Below the pieces are notes generated by a model. It had not been told where the DNA came from. It was given only the letters and a program-made list of their open reading frames with translations, and made no database searches. From a virus (taxonomy: Duplodnaviria; Heunggongvirae; Uroviricota; Caudoviricetes), in IMG/VR virus record IMGVR_UViG_3300029190_000033, positions 1 through 5,495 of that record: DNA of 5,495 nucleotides; one strand, given 5' to 3'. This document shows, in pieces, positions 1 through 5,495 of the stretch. Numbering within the stretch: position 1 is the stretch's first letter; every line of letters starts with the position of its first letter. The position numbers and the translations under genes are program-made.

Positions 1-78
1 CCCTTTTTTTCTTTCCTTTAAAAATCAAAGCAAAACTTAAGCTTCGCAACAAAATTTAAGTTTCCTTCAAAAACACTC

Positions 79-107
79 TTGACCAATAGTTAAAGAAATC
101 TTAAATT
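79..107 (+). promoter_or_regulatory. Candidate PL-like early promoter: -35 TTGACC (79-84), 17-nt spacer, -10 TAAATT (102-107)
   Basis: Sigma70-like hexamers with 17-bp spacing, read directly; lies about 190 nt upstream of the N-like gene and upstream of the nut-like site; overlapped by an operator-like palindrome. The -10 matches consensus at only 4/6. Confidence 0.4.
89..106. promoter_or_regulatory. Candidate repressor operator (OL-like), P22 c2-type 18-bp site GTTAAAGAAATCTTAAAT
   Basis: 15/18 match to the P22 operator consensus ATTTAAGATATCTTAAAT as I recall it; right half ATCTTAAAT is exact. Overlaps the spacer and -10 of the candidate promoter. Further ATTTAAG half-sites at 54-60 and 105-111. 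Confidence 0.4.
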
Positions 108-152
108 TAAGTCATCGGCAGGACGCTGGTAGCCAAACGGAACAGATTGGCA

Positions 153-194
153 GGCTCTTTAACATTGATGGGATTGTCCCGCCGAAATGCGGGA
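153..194 (+). promoter_or_regulatory. Candidate nutL: boxA GGCTCTTTAACA (153-164) plus boxB-like hairpin TCCCGC / CGAAAT / GCGGGA (177-194)
   Basis: GCTCTTTAACA matches the boxA consensus (rrn-type GCTCTTTAACAA); a 6-bp stem with 6-nt purine-rich loop follows 12 nt downstream; sits between the candidate promoter and the N-like gene as in lambda and P22. Confidence 0.5.
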
Positions 195-301
195 ACCAAA
201 GAGTAGTTGGCTTTGGGGTGACGTGAAGTGCAGCTGCACGACGGCAACCGGAAGATAAGCACCCGGCGCGTCACCGCCAAAGTCAATCATCGGAGGTCAA
301 C

Positions 302-574
302 ATGACAGTAGTCATTACATATCTGGCTGACGATAACGCCAGAAATCGCCGCAGAGCACGCAGACAGGCTCAACGTGAGCAGGCAATGCAAGAACAGCGA
401 CTGGCGCGAAAAATTGCGCTAAAGCTCTCTGGTTGCGTCAGAGCAGACAAAGCAGCATCACTCGGAAGCCTTTGCTGCAAGGAAGAAGATGAACGCAGTG
501 GAAGTATTTGCCTGCCAAACGTAGCCATTTACGCGGCAGGATACCGGAAATCAAAACAACTGACGGCGAGGTAA
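302..574 (+). CDS. N: N-family transcription antitermination protein (P22 gene 24 / lambda N-like), 90 aa
   Basis: RBS GGAGG 5 nt before ATG 302. N-terminal arginine-rich motif DNARNRRRARRQAQREQ resembles the lambda N motif (AQTRRRERRAEKQAQ); the MTVVITY start resembles P22 gp24 as recalled. First gene after the nut-like site. Confidence 0.85.
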   Translation: MTVVITYLADDNARNRRRARRQAQREQAMQEQRLARKIALKLSGCVRADKAASLGSLCCKEEDERSGSICLPNVAIYAAGYRKSKQLTAR

Positions 575-577
575 GTG

Positions 578-802
578 ATGAATCAGACATACATTCCATC
601 ATGCTTGAGAAATCTGCCAAAGCAGAAAGCAAAGCCCCGCAAGCAAGCCATAAAGGACGCTAAGGCAGAGGTTATTGATCAAGCAATACAATTGCTCAGG
701 GAGGAGTTAAGAAGTGGCAAGCTCGAAGGAATGATGATGCCCTATCAGCGCGGATATCTATCGGCGATTAGTAAGCTGGAAGTATTGAAGAGTGAATTAT
801 GA
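578..802 (+). CDS. Hypothetical protein, 74 aa, charged and helical-looking; ral/17 position
   Basis: ORF with GAGG RBS 6 nt before ATG 578 (track start 575 is GTG with too-short spacing); begins 4 nt after the N stop. No recognisable motif; GC looks lower than N or erf. Confidence 0.6.
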   Translation: MNQTYIPSCLRNLPKQKAKPRKQAIKDAKAEVIDQAIQLLREELRSGKLEGMMMPYQRGYLSAISKLEVLKSEL

Positions 803-864
803 ACTATCTGGAATTTCCGGATGGTTCATTGTTTTGGCAGCAAACCACTTATTTGAGGTGAGAT

Positions 865-1335
865 ATGACAAAATCATGGAGCGTACCTTTTCCTGAATCA
901 GAAACTGAACATGATGGAATGCCTGTTTTCTGGAGATTCCAGGCGACAGTTGAAGAAGATGGAATCAAAATATTCGCACTTCAATATATAGCTTTTCATC
1001 AGACAGAGCATTATGCATGGTTGGTTCCTGCGCATTGGATTGTTAATTTTAAACCAGCACCAAATCGGTGGTTACAGGAATGGAAACAAAAGAGAAATAG
1101 ATATGCAATTAAGAAAGTAGCAAAAAATGCAGAAAGATCTTTTGCATTCCCAACGAAGAAACTTGCCATTGAAAGTTTATTGCGCCGGAAGAAATACCAT
1201 TTGATGAGAATCAAACAAGATTTGGCTGTTGTATCAACTCTTGTTGATGGGATGAAGAATATTGATACATCAACACCAGATATTGAATATAACTTTGAAC
1301 ACAACAAAGAAACAGAAAATTGGGTATTTTATTAG
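865..1335 (+). CDS. Hypothetical protein, 156 aa, AT-rich moron-like gene between N and cIII
   Basis: Clean ORF with GAGG RBS 6 nt before ATG 865. Visibly lower GC than flanking genes (roughly 35-40% versus about 50% by eye). No predicted transmembrane segment, so not SieB-like. Followed by an inverted repeat and an intrinsic terminator. Confidence 0.7.
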   Translation: MTKSWSVPFPESETEHDGMPVFWRFQATVEEDGIKIFALQYIAFHQTEHYAWLVPAHWIVNFKPAPNRWLQEWKQKRNRYAIKKVAKNAERSFAFPTKKLAIESLLRRKKYHLMRIKQDLAVVSTLVDGMKNIDTSTPDIEYNFEHNKETENWVFY

Positions 1336-1349
1336 TACAAATAAGCACT

Positions 1350-1377
1350 GTGTATTCATTCCAACGAGTGAATACAC
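1350..1377. repeat. Perfect 9-bp inverted repeat GTGTATTCA / TGAATACAC with 10-bp spacer
   Basis: Read directly; 15 nt after the stop of the 156-aa ORF; no T-tract follows, so not a canonical intrinsic terminator. Confidence 0.6.
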
Positions 1378-1439
1378 GGAGCAATGTCGCTCGTAACTAA
1401 ACAGGAGCCGACTTGTTCTGATTATTGGAAATCTTCTTT

Positions 1440-1464
1440 GCCCTCCAGTGTGAGGGCCTTTTTA
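1440..1464 (+). terminator. Rho-independent terminator (tL-like): GCCCTC / cagtgt / GAGGGC then CTTTTTAT
   Basis: Perfect 6-bp GC-rich stem, 6-nt loop, immediate T5 run, in noncoding DNA between the moron ORF and cIII. A weaker hairpin CGCTTC / ACTC / GAGGCG + TTTT lies at 1480-1499. Confidence 0.6.
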
Positions 1465-1529
1465 TATGCATACCAATAACGCTTCACTCGAGGCGTTTTC
1501 GTTATGCAATCAAACAGAAGGAGCATCCT

Positions 1530-1700
1530 ATGCAACAGTTCGCTATTGCAGGGGCGGCATCGGTTCGCCCTTTCAACCCGATTTTATCGGTACAGCATTC
1601 ACGAAAAAACATTTTAACCGGAGCAGACTTTAAACAACCAAGAATGAAAAGTTTGCTCGAAAAGCTTTGGGATATTTTGAAACAACAAGGCCGTCCATGA
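1530..1700 (+). CDS. cIII: cIII-like protein (FtsH inhibitor family; P22 c3 / lambda cIII-like), 56 aa
   Basis: RBS AAGGAG 7 nt before ATG 1530. MQQFAIAG resembles the lambda CIII start MQYAIAG, and SLLEKLWDILKQQG resembles the CIII central helix (SLLERITRKL..RLIDILNQPG), as recalled. The track's longer ORF from 1425 would run through the terminator hairpin and is rejected. Confidence 0.7.
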   Translation: MQQFAIAGAASVRPFNPILSVQHSRKNILTGADFKQPRMKSLLEKLWDILKQQGRP

Positions 1701-1855
1701 GTTTTACAGATAACTGGTCAGACGAAGAATTCATTCGTCAGATGAAAGAATTAATCGGTAACGAAGGAGATATTCATGTCACTTGCAACCACAGTGAAGG
1801 AGAGCAAGTTACAGAGACGCATGTACACGCAGAAAGCTCTCTGGTATCGCCATAA
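1697..1855 (+). CDS. Small hypothetical protein, 52 aa, in the kil position (Kil-like candidate)
   Basis: ATG 1697 overlaps the cIII stop (ATGA), with AAGG 6 nt upstream. Overlaps the next candidate ORF by 80 nt in another frame. Kil assignment is by synteny only. Confidence 0.5.
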   Translation: MSFTDNWSDEEFIRQMKELIGNEGDIHVTCNHSEGEQVTETHVHAESSLVSP

Positions 1856-1946
1856 TGGTGACCGCGAAGGAATGCGGGTATGCCTTAATTTGTCCCGAGT
1901 CGAAGTATTAAATCAGCGTTATTTTCTTGGGCCGTGTCCATTCTGA
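1776..1946 (+). CDS. Small hypothetical protein, 56 aa, immediately upstream of erf (Arf-like candidate)
   Basis: Not in the ORF track; found by manual translation: MSLATTVKESKLQRRMYTQKALWYRHNGDREGMRVCLNLSRVEVLNQRYFLGPCPF. Perfect RBS AAGGAG 6 nt before ATG 1776; stop TGA is 10 nt before the erf ATG. Arf assignment is by position only. Confidence 0.4.
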   Translation: MSLATTVKESKLQRRMYTQKALWYRHNGDREGMRVCLNLSRVEVLNQRYFLGPCPF

Positions 1947-1956
1947 GATCAAACAT

Positions 1957-2553
1957 ATGAGCAAAGAATTTTATGCAAGGCTGGCAGCCATTCAGGAGAA
2001 TCTGAACGCGCCAAAGAATCAGTACAACTCATTCGGCAAATATAAATACAGAAGCTGCGAAGACATTCTTGAAGGCGTTAAGCCGTTACTGAATGGCCTG
2101 TTTTTATCAATCAGCGATGAAGTTGTGTTGATTGGTGATCGGTATTACGTGAAAGCAACGGCAACTATTACTGATGGCGAAAACAGTCATACAGCAACCG
2201 CTCTTGCACGAGAGGAAGAAAGCAAGAAAGGAATGGATTCTGCACAAGTTACGGGCGCTACAAGCTCTTATGCACGCAAGTATTGCCTCAATGGTTTGTT
2301 CGGCATTGATGATGCGAAAGATGCAGATACCGACGAGCATAAACATCAGCAGAACGCAGCAGCAAAGCAATCAAAACCATCACCTACACCTGAACAGGTT
2401 CTAAAAGCATTCACTGACGCAGCATTGCAGAAAAACNNNNNNNNNNNNNCGTTCGCCAAAGCGTGGAAGATGCTCGAAGGCACACCGGAGCAGCACAAAG
2501 CGCAGGACGTTTACAACATCAGACGAGACGAATTAGAAGGAGCGGCTGCTTAA
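1957..2553 (+). CDS. erf: Erf-family single-strand annealing recombinase (P22 essential recombination function), 198 aa
   Basis: N-terminal region MSKEFYARLAAIQENLNAPKNQYNSFGKYKYRSCEDILEGVKP...GATSSYARKYCLNGLFGIDDAKDAD closely matches P22 Erf as I recall it. Contains 13 masked bases (2437-2449); frame is maintained across them. Confidence 0.9.
   Translation: MSKEFYARLAAIQENLNAPKNQYNSFGKYKYRSCEDILEGVKPLLNGLFLSISDEVVLIGDRYYVKATATITDGENSHTATALAREEESKKGMDSAQVTGATSSYARKYCLNGLFGIDDAKDADTDEHKHQQNAAAKQSKPSPTPEQVLKAFTDAALQKNXXXXXFAKAWKMLEGTPEQHKAQDVYNIRRDELEGAAA
2437..2449. other. Run of 13 N (masked bases) inside erf
   Basis: Literal n characters; the erf frame continues across them, suggesting 1:1 masking. 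Confidence 0.95.
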
Positions 2554-2936
2554 TGGCACATTCGATTACTGTAAGACTAAACAAGCCCGCAAGAGAGTTT
2601 CAGGCCGGGGAAAATATCGGATTCAACATCCGTGCTGGCGTTCAGTATTACGATCGCCAGACAAAAAAGAAAGAATGGACAAACTACAGCGCCGTTGTAT
2701 TTGCCAAGCCGGGAGCGCAAGCGGATTACTACCGTAGTGTTCTTGTTGAAGGTGGCATTGTGGAAATTACCGGAGAAAACATCATGGTTGATGTTTATCA
2801 GGGGCAAAATGGTCAATCAATCACTCTTGAATTACTGAATGCAAAGATTGGATTTGCAGCTTCAGGAAATGGCCCGCAGCAGCAAAGTAGTAACCAGCAG
2901 AACACTCCTGTATACGACGATTCCATCCCATTCTGA
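2553..2936 (+). CDS. Small protein with SSB-type C-terminal tail (ends PVYDDSIPF), 127 aa; candidate phage single-stranded-DNA-binding protein or SSB mimic
   Basis: ATG overlaps the erf stop (TAATG). C-terminus is a Gly/Gln/Asn/Pro-rich linker ending in DDSIPF, like the acidic tip DDDIPF of bacterial SSB. N-terminal 100 aa has beta-rich character but I cannot confirm an OB fold by eye. Confidence 0.6.
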   Translation: MAHSITVRLNKPAREFQAGENIGFNIRAGVQYYDRQTKKKEWTNYSAVVFAKPGAQADYYRSVLVEGGIVEITGENIMVDVYQGQNGQSITLELLNAKIGFAASGNGPQQQSSNQQNTPVYDDSIPF

Positions 2937-2959
2937 TTTAGAAAAATAAGGATTCCATT

Positions 2960-3256
2960 ATGCCAGCGCCTCTGTATGGTGCGGATGACCCGCGCCGCTG
3001 TTCCGGCAATTCCGTATTGGAGGTGCTGGATAAATTCAGAAAAAACTACGATCGGATAATGTCGCTACCGCAGGAAGCGAAAGAGGAAAAGGAATTTCGC
3101 CACTGTATATGGCTTGCAGAGAAAGAAGAACGCGAGCGAATTTACCAGACATCAATCCGACCATTCCGTAAAGCCACATATACCCACTTCCCTGAATATA
3201 TCGACCCGCGCCTGCGTAATTACCGCTCACGCTATGGCGCTATCAGTAATGACTGA
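2960..3256 (+). CDS. Hypothetical protein, 98 aa; candidate Abc2-like anti-RecBCD protein
   Basis: RBS TAAGGA 7 nt before ATG 2960. Occupies the abc position downstream of erf in the P22 PL operon and is the right size (about 97 aa); sequence identity to Abc2 is not verified. Confidence 0.5.
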   Translation: MPAPLYGADDPRRCSGNSVLEVLDKFRKNYDRIMSLPQEAKEEKEFRHCIWLAEKEERERIYQTSIRPFRKATYTHFPEYIDPRLRNYRSRYGAISND

Positions 3257-3266
3257 GGAATTAACA

Positions 3267-3557
3267 ATGAAAACAATGAAGCTAAACATCGACCTCGGAA
3301 AATACGTTATTACCGGAACAAAACACGATCTGATTCTTAGCGAAAGAGGAATTATCAAAGAAGGCGAGAATGCAGGGAAAGAAACACTAAGTCGTATCGG
3401 TTATTACAGCAAGTTTGAGCATCTGGTTAAAGAGTTATGCAACCGTGAAATCCTGTTATCTCAGGCGCAGACGCTACAGGATATTCAGCAACATATCGAG
3501 ACTTTAGGTGTGTCACTTAGCATGGCTGTTGACCAGTTCATGGAGAGTAAATCATGA
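3267..3557 (+). CDS. Hypothetical protein, 96 aa
   Basis: RBS GAGG 8 nt before ATG 3267, 10 nt after the previous stop; the track's upstream extension from 3114 overlaps the previous gene and is rejected. No recognisable motif. Confidence 0.65.
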
Positions 3558-3721
3558 GAGGACTTGCATACAATCCCGGCATTCTTCCGGCAGAAATGAT
3601 TATTCGCCAACGCGTAAAGCCAATGCCATCGAGAGAGGAATTGCTTAAAAGAAAGAGTTTCGGTTCTGTTAATGACAACAAATATCTGAATGCGATGTTG
3701 CGCAAAGGAGGCAGCCAGTGA
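3554..3721 (+). CDS. Small hypothetical protein, 55 aa
   Basis: Not in the ORF track; found by manual translation: [59 protein letters not shown] start/stop overlap with the upstream gene and GTGA-type overlap with the downstream gene. Confidence 0.45.
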
Positions 3722-4203
3722 CTGGACATGCAACAATCCTCGACATGCGCTGTGGCAGTCGCATGTTCTGGTTCGATAAGAATGACGGCCGGGCGATATT
3801 TAGCGATATCAGAAAGGAAGAGCACACATTGTGTGATGGACGACGGCTGATAATTAGCCCTGACCTGATAGCAGATTTTCGTGCATTACCATTTGCAGAC
3901 GCATCGTTTCCGGTTGTTGTATTCGACCCTCCGCATCTTGAGCGTGTTGGTGATAACGCCTGGATGGGAAAGAAATATGGACGGCTGAATAAAGATACCT
4001 GGCGTGATGATTTGCGGCAGGGATTTAAAGAAGCCTTTCGTGTGTTGCGGCCATACGGCGTTCTGATTTTTAAATGGAATGAAACGCAAATACCTGTTCG
4101 CCAGATATTGGCACTGACCGACAGAAAGCCTGTTATCGGTCAACGAACAGGAAAGGGTGACAAGACCCACTGGATTATTTTTATGAAGGAGGGCAACCAG
4201 TGA
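3718..4203 (+). CDS. Putative SAM-dependent (DNA) methyltransferase-like protein, 161 aa, motif VVVFDPPH
   Basis: Strong RBS AAAGGAGG 6 nt before GTG 3718. Hydrophobic strand followed by DPPH fits the (D/N/S)PP(Y/F/W/H) catalytic motif of N6-adenine/N4-cytosine methyltransferases. Protein is small for a methyltransferase, so the call is tentative. Confidence 0.45.
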
Positions 4204-4969
4204 GCAAGATTGACTATCAGGCACTGCGTGAAAAAGCAGAGAAAGCAACTAAAGGAAGCTACATCGNNNNNNNNNNNNNNNNNNNNNNNNCGGCAATTTA
4301 ACAGGAGTTTTTGTTTGTCAAAAATGGAAAGGAGAGCCAGGTGGCGTGATTGCAGAATGTCACGTTAACTGCCTGGTTGAAACAGATGCTCAGGCTTATG
4401 CAAACGCAGAATTCATAGCAGAGGCTAACCCAGCTACCGTACTGGCACTACTGGATGAACGGGAAAGAAACCAGCAATACATCAAACGCCGTGACCAGGA
4501 GAACGAGGATATTACGCTAACGGTAGGGAAGCTGCGTGTTGAGCTTGAAGCAGCAGAGAACAACCTTATTGATAGTGAATGCCATGTTGCTGAACTGGAA
4601 GAAGCGCTACGCGATAAGCAGGCGTTACTTGAAGCCTCAGAAAAGCGCAACGCAAAATTACAAAGCGAGAATGCATACATCCGCAACCGGTTCAAAGAAC
4701 TGGACCTATTAATGGGGAAAAACATTCTGGTCATGCAGGCTGCCATTATCGAATGGCAGGCAACTGGCGACGCTAAGAGCGGACTAGCATGGATTTATAA
4801 CACACTGTTTGGCCCTGGCGAATTACCGGACGAATCTGAGAAAGATGCTCAGGCCTACTTTAATCGCAAATATGCACCGATTGACGAAAAGCTTATGGCG
4901 CTTCACAAGTGGTTTTGGGAACAAAGTGAAGCCGAGCGCGCCGCTGGCATTGGCATCAAAGGAGAGTGA
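4200..4969 (+). CDS. Ead/Ea22-like phage protein, interrupted by 24 masked bases; coiled-coil C-terminal half
   Basis: RBS AGGAGG 7 nt before GTG 4200. N-terminus [21 protein letters not shown] and downstream AQAYANAEFIAEANPATVLALLDERE are typical of Ead/Ea22-like proteins as recalled. Reading frame before the N-run differs from the frame of the long ORF ending at 4969, so the true start is uncertain (could be 4346). Confidence 0.6.
4267..4290. other. Run of 24 N (masked bases) inside the Ead/Ea22-like gene
   Basis: Literal n characters; the frames on either side are not the same. Confidence 0.95.
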
Positions 4970-4970
4970 T

Positions 4971-5495
4971 ATGAGCACTATCACTAAAGAACGTATCGAA
5001 TTGTTCATTAAATCCCCGCTTGAAAACGGGCTTACCCGTGGCGAACAAATGGAACTGGCACGAATTGCACTGGCATCGCTGGAAGCAGAGCCTGTAAGCC
5101 AAGCTTACAACTTGGCAGAATTAATCGAAGGCATGGAAGTTTCCATTGATGTAAGCACTTGTGATGCTGATTTAGGTAATCGCTATTTCGGCACCGTCAC
5201 CGAGGCGTTAGAACTTGATACAGCCAAGAATGGTTACATCCTCCTGGTTCAGGACGCAGAGCCAAACTTCGATGTAAATGGCAACTCTCCGGTAACTCCG
5301 GATAGCTGGATCTCCCGCTTCGAAGAAATGCCGGATCCGTCTAGCGAAAGGCGCGTGTGTGCGTTCACACCTACCAACCATGAAGATATGCGCTACCGCT
5401 TCGTGCCCGCCTCGCTCTTTAAGACAGTTTGCAGAGACGCGACCCACTGGTTTTATATGCTTCCGCCAGTAGGGCGGGAGGAGGTTGCAGGTGGC
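4971..5495 (+). CDS. Hypothetical protein, 5' part only (175 codons, open to window end)
   Basis: Not in the ORF track; manual translation from ATG 4971 (MSTITKERIELFIKSPLENGLTRGEQMELARIALASLEAEPV...) has no stop through 5495. Perfect RBS AAGGAG 6 nt upstream, 1 nt after the previous stop. Confidence 0.65.
   Translation, partial: MSTITKERIELFIKSPLENGLTRGEQMELARIALASLEAEPVSQAYNLAELIEGMEVSIDVSTCDADLGNRYFGTVTEALELDTAKNGYILLVQDAEPNFDVNGNSPVTPDSWISRFEEMPDPSSERRVCAFTPTNHEDMRYRFVPASLFKTVCRDATHWFYMLPPVGREEVAGG

What the first reader, a model, noticed from the sequence alone, without database searches (positions are those of the whole stretch)
2960..3256. Abc2-position ORF: possible RecBCD modulator next to erf
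P22 encodes Abc1 and Abc2 immediately after erf, and Abc2 modifies RecBCD. This 98-aa ORF has the right size and position. If it is not Abc2-like it is another unknown accessory protein of the recombination module.
Basis: partly seen in the sequence, partly recalled or inferred. Interest (0 to 1): 0.45.

Follow-up and report, generated by a model that had tools for sequence, protein, structure and literature searches.

The report
Ordinary phage Abc2 anti-RecBCD gene

Summary
The ORF at 2960-3256 (+) is real: ATG start, TGA stop, 98 aa, AAGGA ribosome-binding site 7 nt upstream. It is an orthologue of phage P22 Abc2. It matches Pfam PF11043 (Anti-RecBCD_p2) end to end at E=1.9e-60 and PHROG 656 "abc2 anti-RecBCD" at 2e-55. 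It is 91% identical to P22 Abc2, the chain solved on E. coli RecBCD (PDB 8B1T/8B1U). All 15 Abc2 residues published as polar contacts to RecC are identical here. So is Pro68, the residue thought to sit in the host PpiB active site. dN/dS against P22 is 0.14. Similar DNA occurs in 1101 of 5426 complete E. coli genomes, annotated "phage anti-RecBCD protein". The window is the early-left operon of a lambdoid phage or prophage: N, cIII, HK75 Gp33-like, erf, HK97 gp40-like, abc2, DUF5405, DUF2737, DNA methyltransferase, Ea22. It is almost identical to a human-gut metagenome contig. The gene between erf and abc2 is not abc1 but an HK97 gp40-type SSB-like gene, an arrangement already known from HK97. 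T4 gene 2 plating is a poor test, because Abc2 reportedly leaves RecBCD exonuclease active. Verdict: already known, low interest.

The parts
2960..3256 (+). abc2 coding sequence (98 aa plus TGA), orthologue of P22 Abc2 / anti-RecBCD protein 2
   Evidence: ORF. Pfam PF11043 E=1.9e-60, profile positions 1-97 of 97. PHROG 656 E=2.1e-55. 91% identity to P22 Abc2. PDB 8B1T/8B1U chain A E=4.7e-55. dN/dS 0.14-0.42 against six homologues.
2948..2952 (+). Shine-Dalgarno-like AAGGA, 7 nt upstream of the abc2 ATG
   Evidence: Read directly from the sequence. This is a consensus resemblance only and was not tested.
2966..3103 (+). codons 3-48, the N-terminal loop and helical segment that contacts RecC in the P22 Abc2-RecBCD structure
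   Evidence: The 15 polar-contact residues listed for 8B1T (A3, R13, C14, S15, G16, Y30, I33, M34, L36, E39, K41, K44, E45, R47, H48) are all identical in the window protein. The AF2 model gives helices at 19-35 and 41-65.
3161..3163 (+). codon 68 (Pro68), the residue proposed to occupy the host PpiB prolyl-isomerase active site
   Evidence: P68 is invariant in 42 of 42 aligned homologues. Its role is taken from PMC9836394.
3158..3253 (+). codons 67-98, the C-terminal tail, which is the most conserved third of the family and is unresolved in the cryo-EM maps
   Evidence: Mean column entropy is 0.40 for residues 67-98 against 0.87 for residues 19-52. The published model stops at residue 66. AF2 pLDDT is 50-58 in this region.
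1957..2553 (+). erf (ssDNA-annealing recombinase), functional partner of Abc2; contains a 13-base N mask at 2437-2449
   Evidence: Pfam PF04404 E=2.3e-44. 75% identity to P22 Erf. N run located.
2553..2936 (+). 127-aa HK97 gp40-type SSB-like gene in the slot that abc1 occupies in P22; ends in YDDSIPF
   Evidence: 94% identity to HK97 gp40. PHROG 44 'single strand DNA binding protein' E=2.9e-26. No similarity to P22 Abc1. No Pfam, NCBIfam or PDB sequence match.
1697..1855 (+). 52-aa HK75 Gp33-like gene in the slot that arf occupies in P22
   Evidence: 48/52 identical to HK75 Gp33. PHROG 2123. No similarity to P22 Arf.

Best explanation
The ORF encodes a functional orthologue of bacteriophage P22 Abc2 (anti-RecBCD protein 2). 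It is expressed from the early-left (PL, N-antiterminated) operon of a lambdoid E. coli phage or prophage. By direct analogy with P22 Abc2, its N-terminal loop and first helices bind the Chi-recognition ('inactivated helicase') domains of the RecC subunit of host RecBCD. This makes the enzyme unresponsive to Chi and blocks RecA-dependent host recombination, while helicase and exonuclease stay largely active. RecBCD then serves as the resection nuclease that supplies ssDNA for the phage's own annealing protein Erf, encoded two genes upstream. Host PpiB is expected to engage Pro68. What is shown here: gene integrity, family membership, conservation of every published RecC-contact residue and of Pro68, purifying selection, and genomic context. 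What is inferred from P22 work: binding to RecC, loss of the Chi response, and hand-off to Erf. The hand-off is still only a model even for P22.
For: - Family match: full-length Pfam PF11043, 201.5 bits against a cut-off of 25; PHROG 656 abc2.
- Identity to the prototype: 89/98 identical to P22 Abc2, and a match to the solved chain 8B1T_A.
- Interface: all 15 ePISA-listed polar contacts to RecC are identical. P68 is invariant.
- Close relatives: 93-98% identity to the Abc2 proteins of coliphages HK97, HK620, HK75, HK022 and IME10.
- Selection: dN/dS 0.14 vs P22.
- Context: N, cIII, erf and abc2 lie on the same strand, as in P22, HK97 and HK75.
- Predicted structure: helices 19-35 and 41-65 followed by a low-confidence tail. 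This agrees with the published 3-66 helical model and disordered C-terminus.
- Mechanism: taken from PMC9836394, PMC5928155 and PMC12315714.
- No Chi site on either strand of the window. This fits the reported Chi avoidance of Abc2 phages, although 5.5 kb is too short to be significant.
Against: - Nothing was tested biochemically.
- The window protein has A40 where 40 of 42 aligned homologues have T, and L20 where most have S or A. Both lie in the RecC-bound segment, though neither is a listed polar contact.
- The P22 partner genes abc1 and arf, said to be needed for full activity in P22, are absent.
- The Foldseek search of the model against the PDB returned nothing, so fold identity rests on sequence.
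Confidence: 0.93

Rival explanations
1. It is a complete RecBCD nuclease inhibitor of the Gam or gp5.9 kind: a DNA mimic that blocks the DNA-binding site and so rescues T4 gene 2 mutants.
For: Database names such as 'inhibitor of RecBCD nuclease' and 'RecBCD nuclease inhibitor' are attached to homologues.
Against: - The only family match is PF11043. No Gam or other family appears at E<=0.01.
- The calculated pI is 8.9, whereas the paper presents the known DNA mimics as highly charged, Asp/Glu-contacting proteins.
- The prototype, 91% identical, binds RecC away from the DNA entry site. It leaves helicase and exonuclease largely intact.
Confidence: 0.03
2. It is an inactive remnant carried in a decaying prophage, with an intact reading frame but no function.
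For: The source is a metagenome-type fragment. Many E. coli prophages are defective, and truncated or fused Abc2 products exist in the database (for example P0066 and P0104).
Against: - The reading frame is full length, with start, stop and RBS.
- dN/dS is well below 1 against every homologue.
- All contact residues and the highly conserved C-terminal tail are intact.
- All neighbouring genes of the operon are intact too.
Confidence: 0.03
3. It is an Abc2 homologue whose activity has shifted. This could be because of the rare T40A and S20L changes. It could also be because it works with different partners (HK97 gp40-type SSB-like protein and Gp33-like protein instead of Abc1 and Arf), for example handing RecBCD-generated ssDNA to the SSB-like protein rather than directly to Erf.
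For: - A40 is unique among 42 aligned sequences and L20 occurs in 4 of 42.
- abc1 and arf are absent.
- The neighbouring protein ends in an SSB-like tip, YDDSIPF. In HK620 such a tip mediates stimulation of the recombinase.
- HK75 Gp33, 92% identical to the window's 52-aa protein, is proposed to manipulate RecBCD.
Against: - Neither substituted position is a listed RecC contact.
- The same erf/gp40/abc2 arrangement occurs in HK97 with an ordinary Abc2.
- Abc2 is combined freely with Erf or Sak4 and with three unrelated middle genes: Abc1, HK97 gp40-type, and the HK620 and HK75 SSBs. This suggests Abc2 acts on RecBCD independently of its neighbours.
Confidence: 0.04

Closest known systems
Bacteriophage P22 Abc2 (anti-RecBCD protein 2; NP_059594; PDB 8B1T/8B1U chain A)
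   Same: - 91% identical over the full length, with the same size (98 vs 97 aa).
- Every published RecC polar-contact residue and Pro68 are the same.
- Same position, second gene after erf in the PL operon.
   Different: - Nine differences: S20L, L32R, T40A, A65S, K76H, I78P, one extra Tyr at 80, D87N and N98D.
- The neighbouring genes abc1 and arf of P22 are replaced by unrelated genes.
- The host range of close relatives is E. coli rather than Salmonella.
Abc2 of coliphages HK97 (gp39), HK620 (HkaJ), HK75 (gp30), HK022 and IME10
   Same: - 93-98% identical.
- HK97 has the same erf / gp40 / abc2 order.
- HK75 has the same Gp33-like gene upstream of erf.
   Different: - An extra DUF5405 gene (3267-3557) sits between abc2 and the DUF2737 gene. 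In those phages and in P22, DUF2737 follows abc2 directly.
- A40 and L20 are rare variants.
Lambda Gam and T7 gp5.9 (DNA-mimic RecBCD inhibitors)
   Same: They have the same target enzyme and the same general purpose, protecting or promoting phage DNA against RecBCD.
   Different: - There is no sequence relationship.
- Those proteins occupy the DNA-binding site and shut down all activities. Abc2 binds the RecC Chi-recognition domains and modulates rather than blocks the enzyme.

Membership tests
Abc2 / Anti-RecBCD_p2 (Pfam PF11043, PHROG 656) | Full-length sequence match to the family profile above the curated threshold | tested here: met
   PF11043 at 201.5 bits against a gathering score of 25, E=1.9e-60, protein 1-98 on profile 1-97 of 97. 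PHROG 656 E=2.1e-55.
Abc2 / Anti-RecBCD_p2 (Pfam PF11043, PHROG 656) | Direct similarity to the experimentally characterised prototype, P22 Abc2 | tested here: met
   BLASTP gives 89/98 identical with one gap, E=3e-66. phmmer against PDB 8B1T_A gives E=4.7e-55.
Abc2 / Anti-RecBCD_p2 (Pfam PF11043, PHROG 656) | Conservation of the residues that contact RecC in the cryo-EM structure | tested here: met
   All 15 residues in Figure 4-source data 1 of PMC9836394 are identical in the window protein.
Abc2 / Anti-RecBCD_p2 (Pfam PF11043, PHROG 656) | Pro68, required for co-purification with host PpiB | tested here: met
   P68 is present and invariant in 42 of 42 homologues. Its role is from PMC9836394.
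Abc2 / Anti-RecBCD_p2 (Pfam PF11043, PHROG 656) | Extended two-helix N-terminal part with a flexible C-terminal tail | tested here: inconclusive
   The AF2 model (mean pLDDT 70.9) has helices at 19-35 and 41-65 and a low-confidence tail, which agrees with the published description. The Foldseek search of the PDB returned no hit at all, so there is no quantitative superposition.
Abc2 / Anti-RecBCD_p2 (Pfam PF11043, PHROG 656) | Location in the early-left recombination module of a lambdoid/P22-like phage, next to an annealing-protein gene | tested here: met
   N, cIII, erf and abc2 lie on one strand, in the same order as in P22, HK97 and HK75.
Abc2 / Anti-RecBCD_p2 (Pfam PF11043, PHROG 656) | Physical binding to RecC, loss of Chi response, and retention of exonuclease | not testable with these tools
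   This requires biochemistry or genetics. The behaviour is known for P22 Abc2 only.
P22-type complete Abc module (arf-erf-abc1-abc2) | Presence of an Abc1 homologue between erf and abc2 | tested here: not met
   BLASTP of the 127-aa protein against P22 Abc1 gives no alignment. tblastn of Abc1 against the whole window gives nothing better than E=0.97. The gene is HK97 gp40-type.
P22-type complete Abc module (arf-erf-abc1-abc2) | Presence of an Arf homologue upstream of erf | tested here: not met
   tblastn of P22 Arf against the window gives a best E of 0.79. That slot holds an HK75 Gp33-like gene.
Gam / gp5.9-type DNA-mimic RecBCD inhibitors | Sequence membership in the Gam family | tested here: not met
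   No Pfam family other than PF11043 appears at E<=0.01. No PADLOC or NCBIfam match either.

The most novel reading that the evidence does not exclude
The C-terminal third of Abc2 (residues 67-98) is the most conserved segment of the family here, yet it is invisible in the cryo-EM maps. It may be the real effector that reaches the RecB motor or recruits the phage recombination proteins. In Abc1/Arf-less modules like this one, an SSB-like protein with an SSB-type acidic tip and a Gp33-like putative RecBCD manipulator may take over the accessory roles. That would define a second functional architecture for hijacking RecBCD. This would be a property of the whole Abc2 family, not something special to this window.
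Probability: 0.15. Interest if true: 0.4.

Novelty: already known. Interest (0 to 1): 0.07.

Why it matters
It matters little as a discovery. Abc2 has been genetically, biochemically and structurally characterised in P22. Similar DNA is annotated as 'phage anti-RecBCD protein' in about a fifth of complete E. coli genomes. The erf / gp40-type / abc2 order is already present in phage HK97, and lambdoid recombination modules have been catalogued by type. The value of this check is that it turns a positional guess into a firm annotation. It also corrects the neighbouring-gene assumption (no abc1). Finally, it warns that a nuclease-inhibition assay would wrongly 'refute' a genuine Abc2.

Tried and rejected
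- Foldseek of the AF2 model of the window Abc2 against the PDB gave no hits, not even 8B1T. Short extended helical hairpins are poor Foldseek queries, so I treat this as uninformative.
I repeated it with A2.
- Single-sequence AF2 of the 127-aa gp40-like protein gave pLDDT 41, which is unusable. Its SSB-like label therefore rests only on PHROG 44 and the C-terminal YDDSIPF.
- NCBIfam and PADLOC scans of Abc2 and its small neighbours gave no matches, apart from the methyltransferase.
- The Rfam scan of the window found nothing at gathering thresholds.
- The promoter and terminator scan found no more sites than shuffled controls and nothing specific to abc2. The gene therefore looks co-transcribed with the operon.
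- I considered and rejected Abc1 identity for the 2553-2936 gene.
- I rejected the - strand ORF 3036-3230 (64 aa) as a real gene. It lies wholly inside a + strand frame that is under purifying selection, but I did not test it separately.

Full report
**Observation.** The window has an ORF at exactly 2960-3256 on the + strand: ATG, 98 codons, TGA. An AAGGA motif lies at 2948-2952, 7 nt before the ATG. The preceding gene stops at 2934-2936, so the gene sits in a tightly packed same-strand array. A 98-aa ORF is not remarkable in itself, since a spurious one of the same length lies on the - strand at 1011-1307. The case that this is a real gene rests on homology and selection.

**Identity.**
- The protein matches Pfam PF11043 'Bacteriophage P22, anti-RecBCD protein 2' over its whole length (profile 1-97 of 97, 201.5 bits against a cut-off of 25, E=1.9e-60).
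- It matches PHROG 656 'abc2 anti-RecBCD' at E=2.1e-55.
- I fetched the P22 record and aligned directly. The result is 89/98 identities, one single-residue gap, E=3e-66.
- The only PDB sequence match is chain A of 8B1T/8B1U, 'Anti-RecBCD protein 2', at E=4.7e-55.
- tblastn against 50,697 phage records finds 226 records. Nearly all are Escherichia, Salmonella, Shigella or Stx-converting phages. Coliphages HK620, HK97, HK022, HK106, mEpX2 and IME10 score 94-98%, and P22 scores 91%.
- The large protein collection gives 240 clusters. Every listed cluster carries PF11043, and every named one comes from Escherichia or Salmonella.
- Similar DNA occurs in 1101 of 5426 complete E. coli genomes. In the rows listed it is annotated 'phage anti-RecBCD protein'.

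**Selection and integrity.** Nei-Gojobori counts give dN/dS of 0.14 against P22, 0.27 against HK97, 0.25 against MG40 and 0.42 against TL-2011a. The frame is under purifying selection.

**Functional residues.**
- The eLife 2022 structure paper (PMC9836394) lists the polar contacts between P22 Abc2 and E. coli RecC: A3, R13, C14, S15, G16, Y30, I33, M34, L36, E39, K41, K44, E45, R47 and H48. All 15 are identical in the window protein.
- Pro68 is present, and it is invariant in a 42-sequence alignment. A P68A mutation abolishes co-purification of host PpiB, and the residue is modelled into the isomerase active site.
- The differences from P22 are S20L, L32R, T40A, A65S, K76H, I78P, an extra Y80, D87N and N98D.
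- A40 is unusual, because 40 of 42 sequences have T. L20 occurs in 4 of 42. Neither is a listed contact.
- An AlphaFold2 model built on the 42-sequence alignment (mean pLDDT 70.9) has helices at 19-35 and 41-65 and then a low-confidence tail. This agrees with the published extended helical model of residues 3-66 and the disordered C-terminus.
- Foldseek against the PDB returned nothing. I regard that as uninformative for such a small extended hairpin.

**Context.** The + strand carries these genes:
- N (302-574, PF25694) and PHROG 5305 (575-802).
- An HK97 gp45-like gene (865-1335).
- cIII (1530-1700, PHROG 550).
- A 52-aa gene (1697-1855), 92% identical to HK75 Gp33.
- erf (1957-2553, PF04404, 75% identical to P22 Erf).
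- A 127-aa gene (2553-2936).
- abc2 (2960-3256).
- A DUF5405 gene (3267-3557) and a DUF2737 / P22 orf56-like gene (3554-3721).
- A DNA methyltransferase (3718-4203).
- An Ead/Ea22-like gene (4346-4969).

This is the N-antiterminated early-left operon of a lambdoid phage. The exact Abc2 sequence occurs on three metagenome contigs, each with the same erf / 127-aa / abc2 / DUF5405 order. One of them is a 5,974-bp human-gut contig, L008. It is essentially identical to window 131-5495, apart from the two N-masked stretches.

**Correction on abc1.** Here the gene in the abc1 slot has no similarity to P22 Abc1. Abc1 finds nothing in any frame of the window (best E=0.97). That gene is 94% identical to HK97 gp40. 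It matches PHROG 44 'single strand DNA binding protein' at E=2.9e-26, and it ends in YDDSIPF, which resembles the E. coli SSB tip DDDIPF quoted in PMC5928155. P22 Arf is also absent. HK97 shows the same erf / gp40 / abc2 order. HK75 has erf / SSB / abc2 and HK620 has sak4 / SSB / abc2. Abc2 therefore combines freely with different partner genes. Lambdoid Rec modules have already been sorted into 13 types that combine SSBs, annealing proteins and anti-RecBCD proteins such as Abc2 (PMC12315714).

**Mechanism.** This part is taken from the literature, not tested here.
- P22 Abc2 binds the Chi-recognition ('inactivated helicase') domains of RecC. The site is near the latch helix and the proposed exit channel for the post-Chi ssDNA loop.
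- The complex keeps helicase activity. Exonuclease activity is retained in vivo, but RecBCD-dependent recombination and the response to Chi are lost, and 5'-strand cutting is upregulated.
- Murphy's model, which the structure is consistent with, is that Abc2 hijacks RecBCD to produce ssDNA for Erf instead of RecA. The hand-off itself has not been demonstrated.
- Given 91% identity, identical contact residues, and the fact that the solved complex used E. coli RecBCD, I infer the same mechanism here with high confidence.
A genuine Abc2 is expected to score weakly or negatively. Assays of Chi activity or RecBCD-dependent recombination, or co-purification with RecBCD, are the right tests.

**A small observation on the family.** In the 42-sequence alignment the most conserved segment is the C-terminal third. 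Mean column entropy is 0.40 for residues 67-98, against 0.87 for residues 19-52 and 0.53 for residues 1-18. This is the part that the cryo-EM maps do not resolve, and the authors saw only weak density for it heading toward the RecB motor domains. It suggests an important but unassigned role for the tail. It is a property of the whole family, not of this window.

**Rivals.** I considered three and rate each at no more than about 4%.
- A Gam/gp5.9-like total inhibitor. There is no sequence relationship and the protein is basic, with pI 8.9.
- A decayed pseudogene-like remnant. The frame is intact, dN/dS is below 1 and the neighbouring genes are intact.
- A functionally shifted variant, because of A40/L20 or different partners. 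The substituted positions are not listed RecC contacts, and the same architecture occurs in HK97.

**Verdict.** The gene is an ordinary, already-known abc2 orthologue, so novelty is 'already known' and interest is low.

Noticed in passing
window 2553-2936 (+): The gene in the slot that abc1 occupies in P22 is unrelated to Abc1. It is 94% identical to HK97 gp40 and matches PHROG 44 (SSB) at E=3e-26, but has no Pfam, NCBIfam or PDB sequence match. It ends in YDDSIPF, like the E. coli SSB tip, whereas HK97 gp40 has YDDSNPI at the corresponding positions. Single-sequence AF2 failed (pLDDT 41), so an OB fold is not confirmed.
   Followed up: partly
window 1697-1855 (+): This 52-aa gene just upstream of erf is 48/52 identical to HK75 Gp33. 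A 2026 bioRxiv preprint (10.64898/2026.07.10.737580) reports that Gp33 alone triggers the P2 OLD abortive-infection nuclease, and hypothesises that it is a new RecBCD inhibitor or manipulator. It is arguably the more interesting unknown of this recombination module.
   Followed up: partly
window 3267-3557 (+): An extra 96-aa gene (Pfam DUF5405 E=2e-5; PHROG 154, labelled 'replication initiation protein') sits between abc2 and the DUF2737/orf56 homologue (3554-3721). In P22, HK97, HK620 and HK75 the DUF2737 gene follows abc2 directly.
   Followed up: no
window 2437-2449 and 4267-4290: There are two runs of N (13 and 24 bases), inside erf and inside the Ead/Ea22-like gene. The near-identical contig L008 is 10 bases longer than the window over the aligned stretch (two gaps), and its erf is 201 aa against 198 aa here, so the masks hide real sequence of slightly different length. 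They split the Ea22-like gene (one 256-aa product in L008) into two ORFs here.
   Followed up: partly
window 3158-3253 (Abc2 residues 67-98): The C-terminal third of Abc2, unresolved in the 8B1T/8B1U cryo-EM models, is the most conserved part of the family. Mean column entropy is 0.40 against 0.87 for the RecC-binding helices across 42 homologues.
   Followed up: partly
window 3718-4203 (+): A 161-aa DNA methyltransferase (PHROG 954 E=7e-86; PADLOC MTase_II 3.5e-72 and orphan MTase 2.5e-48) lies in the early-left accessory region. It is probably an orphan anti-restriction methylase.
   Followed up: no
window 1-5495, both strands: There is no Chi octamer (GCTGGTGG) on either strand. This fits the reported Chi avoidance of Abc2-encoding phages, but it is not significant in 5.5 kb.
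   Followed up: no
window 1530-1855 (+): cIII (1530-1700) overlaps the start of the Gp33-like gene (1697), and no P22-type kil homologue was detected between them by tblastn. HK97 and HK75 carry kil at that position. HK97-type Kil was not searched for.
   Followed up: no
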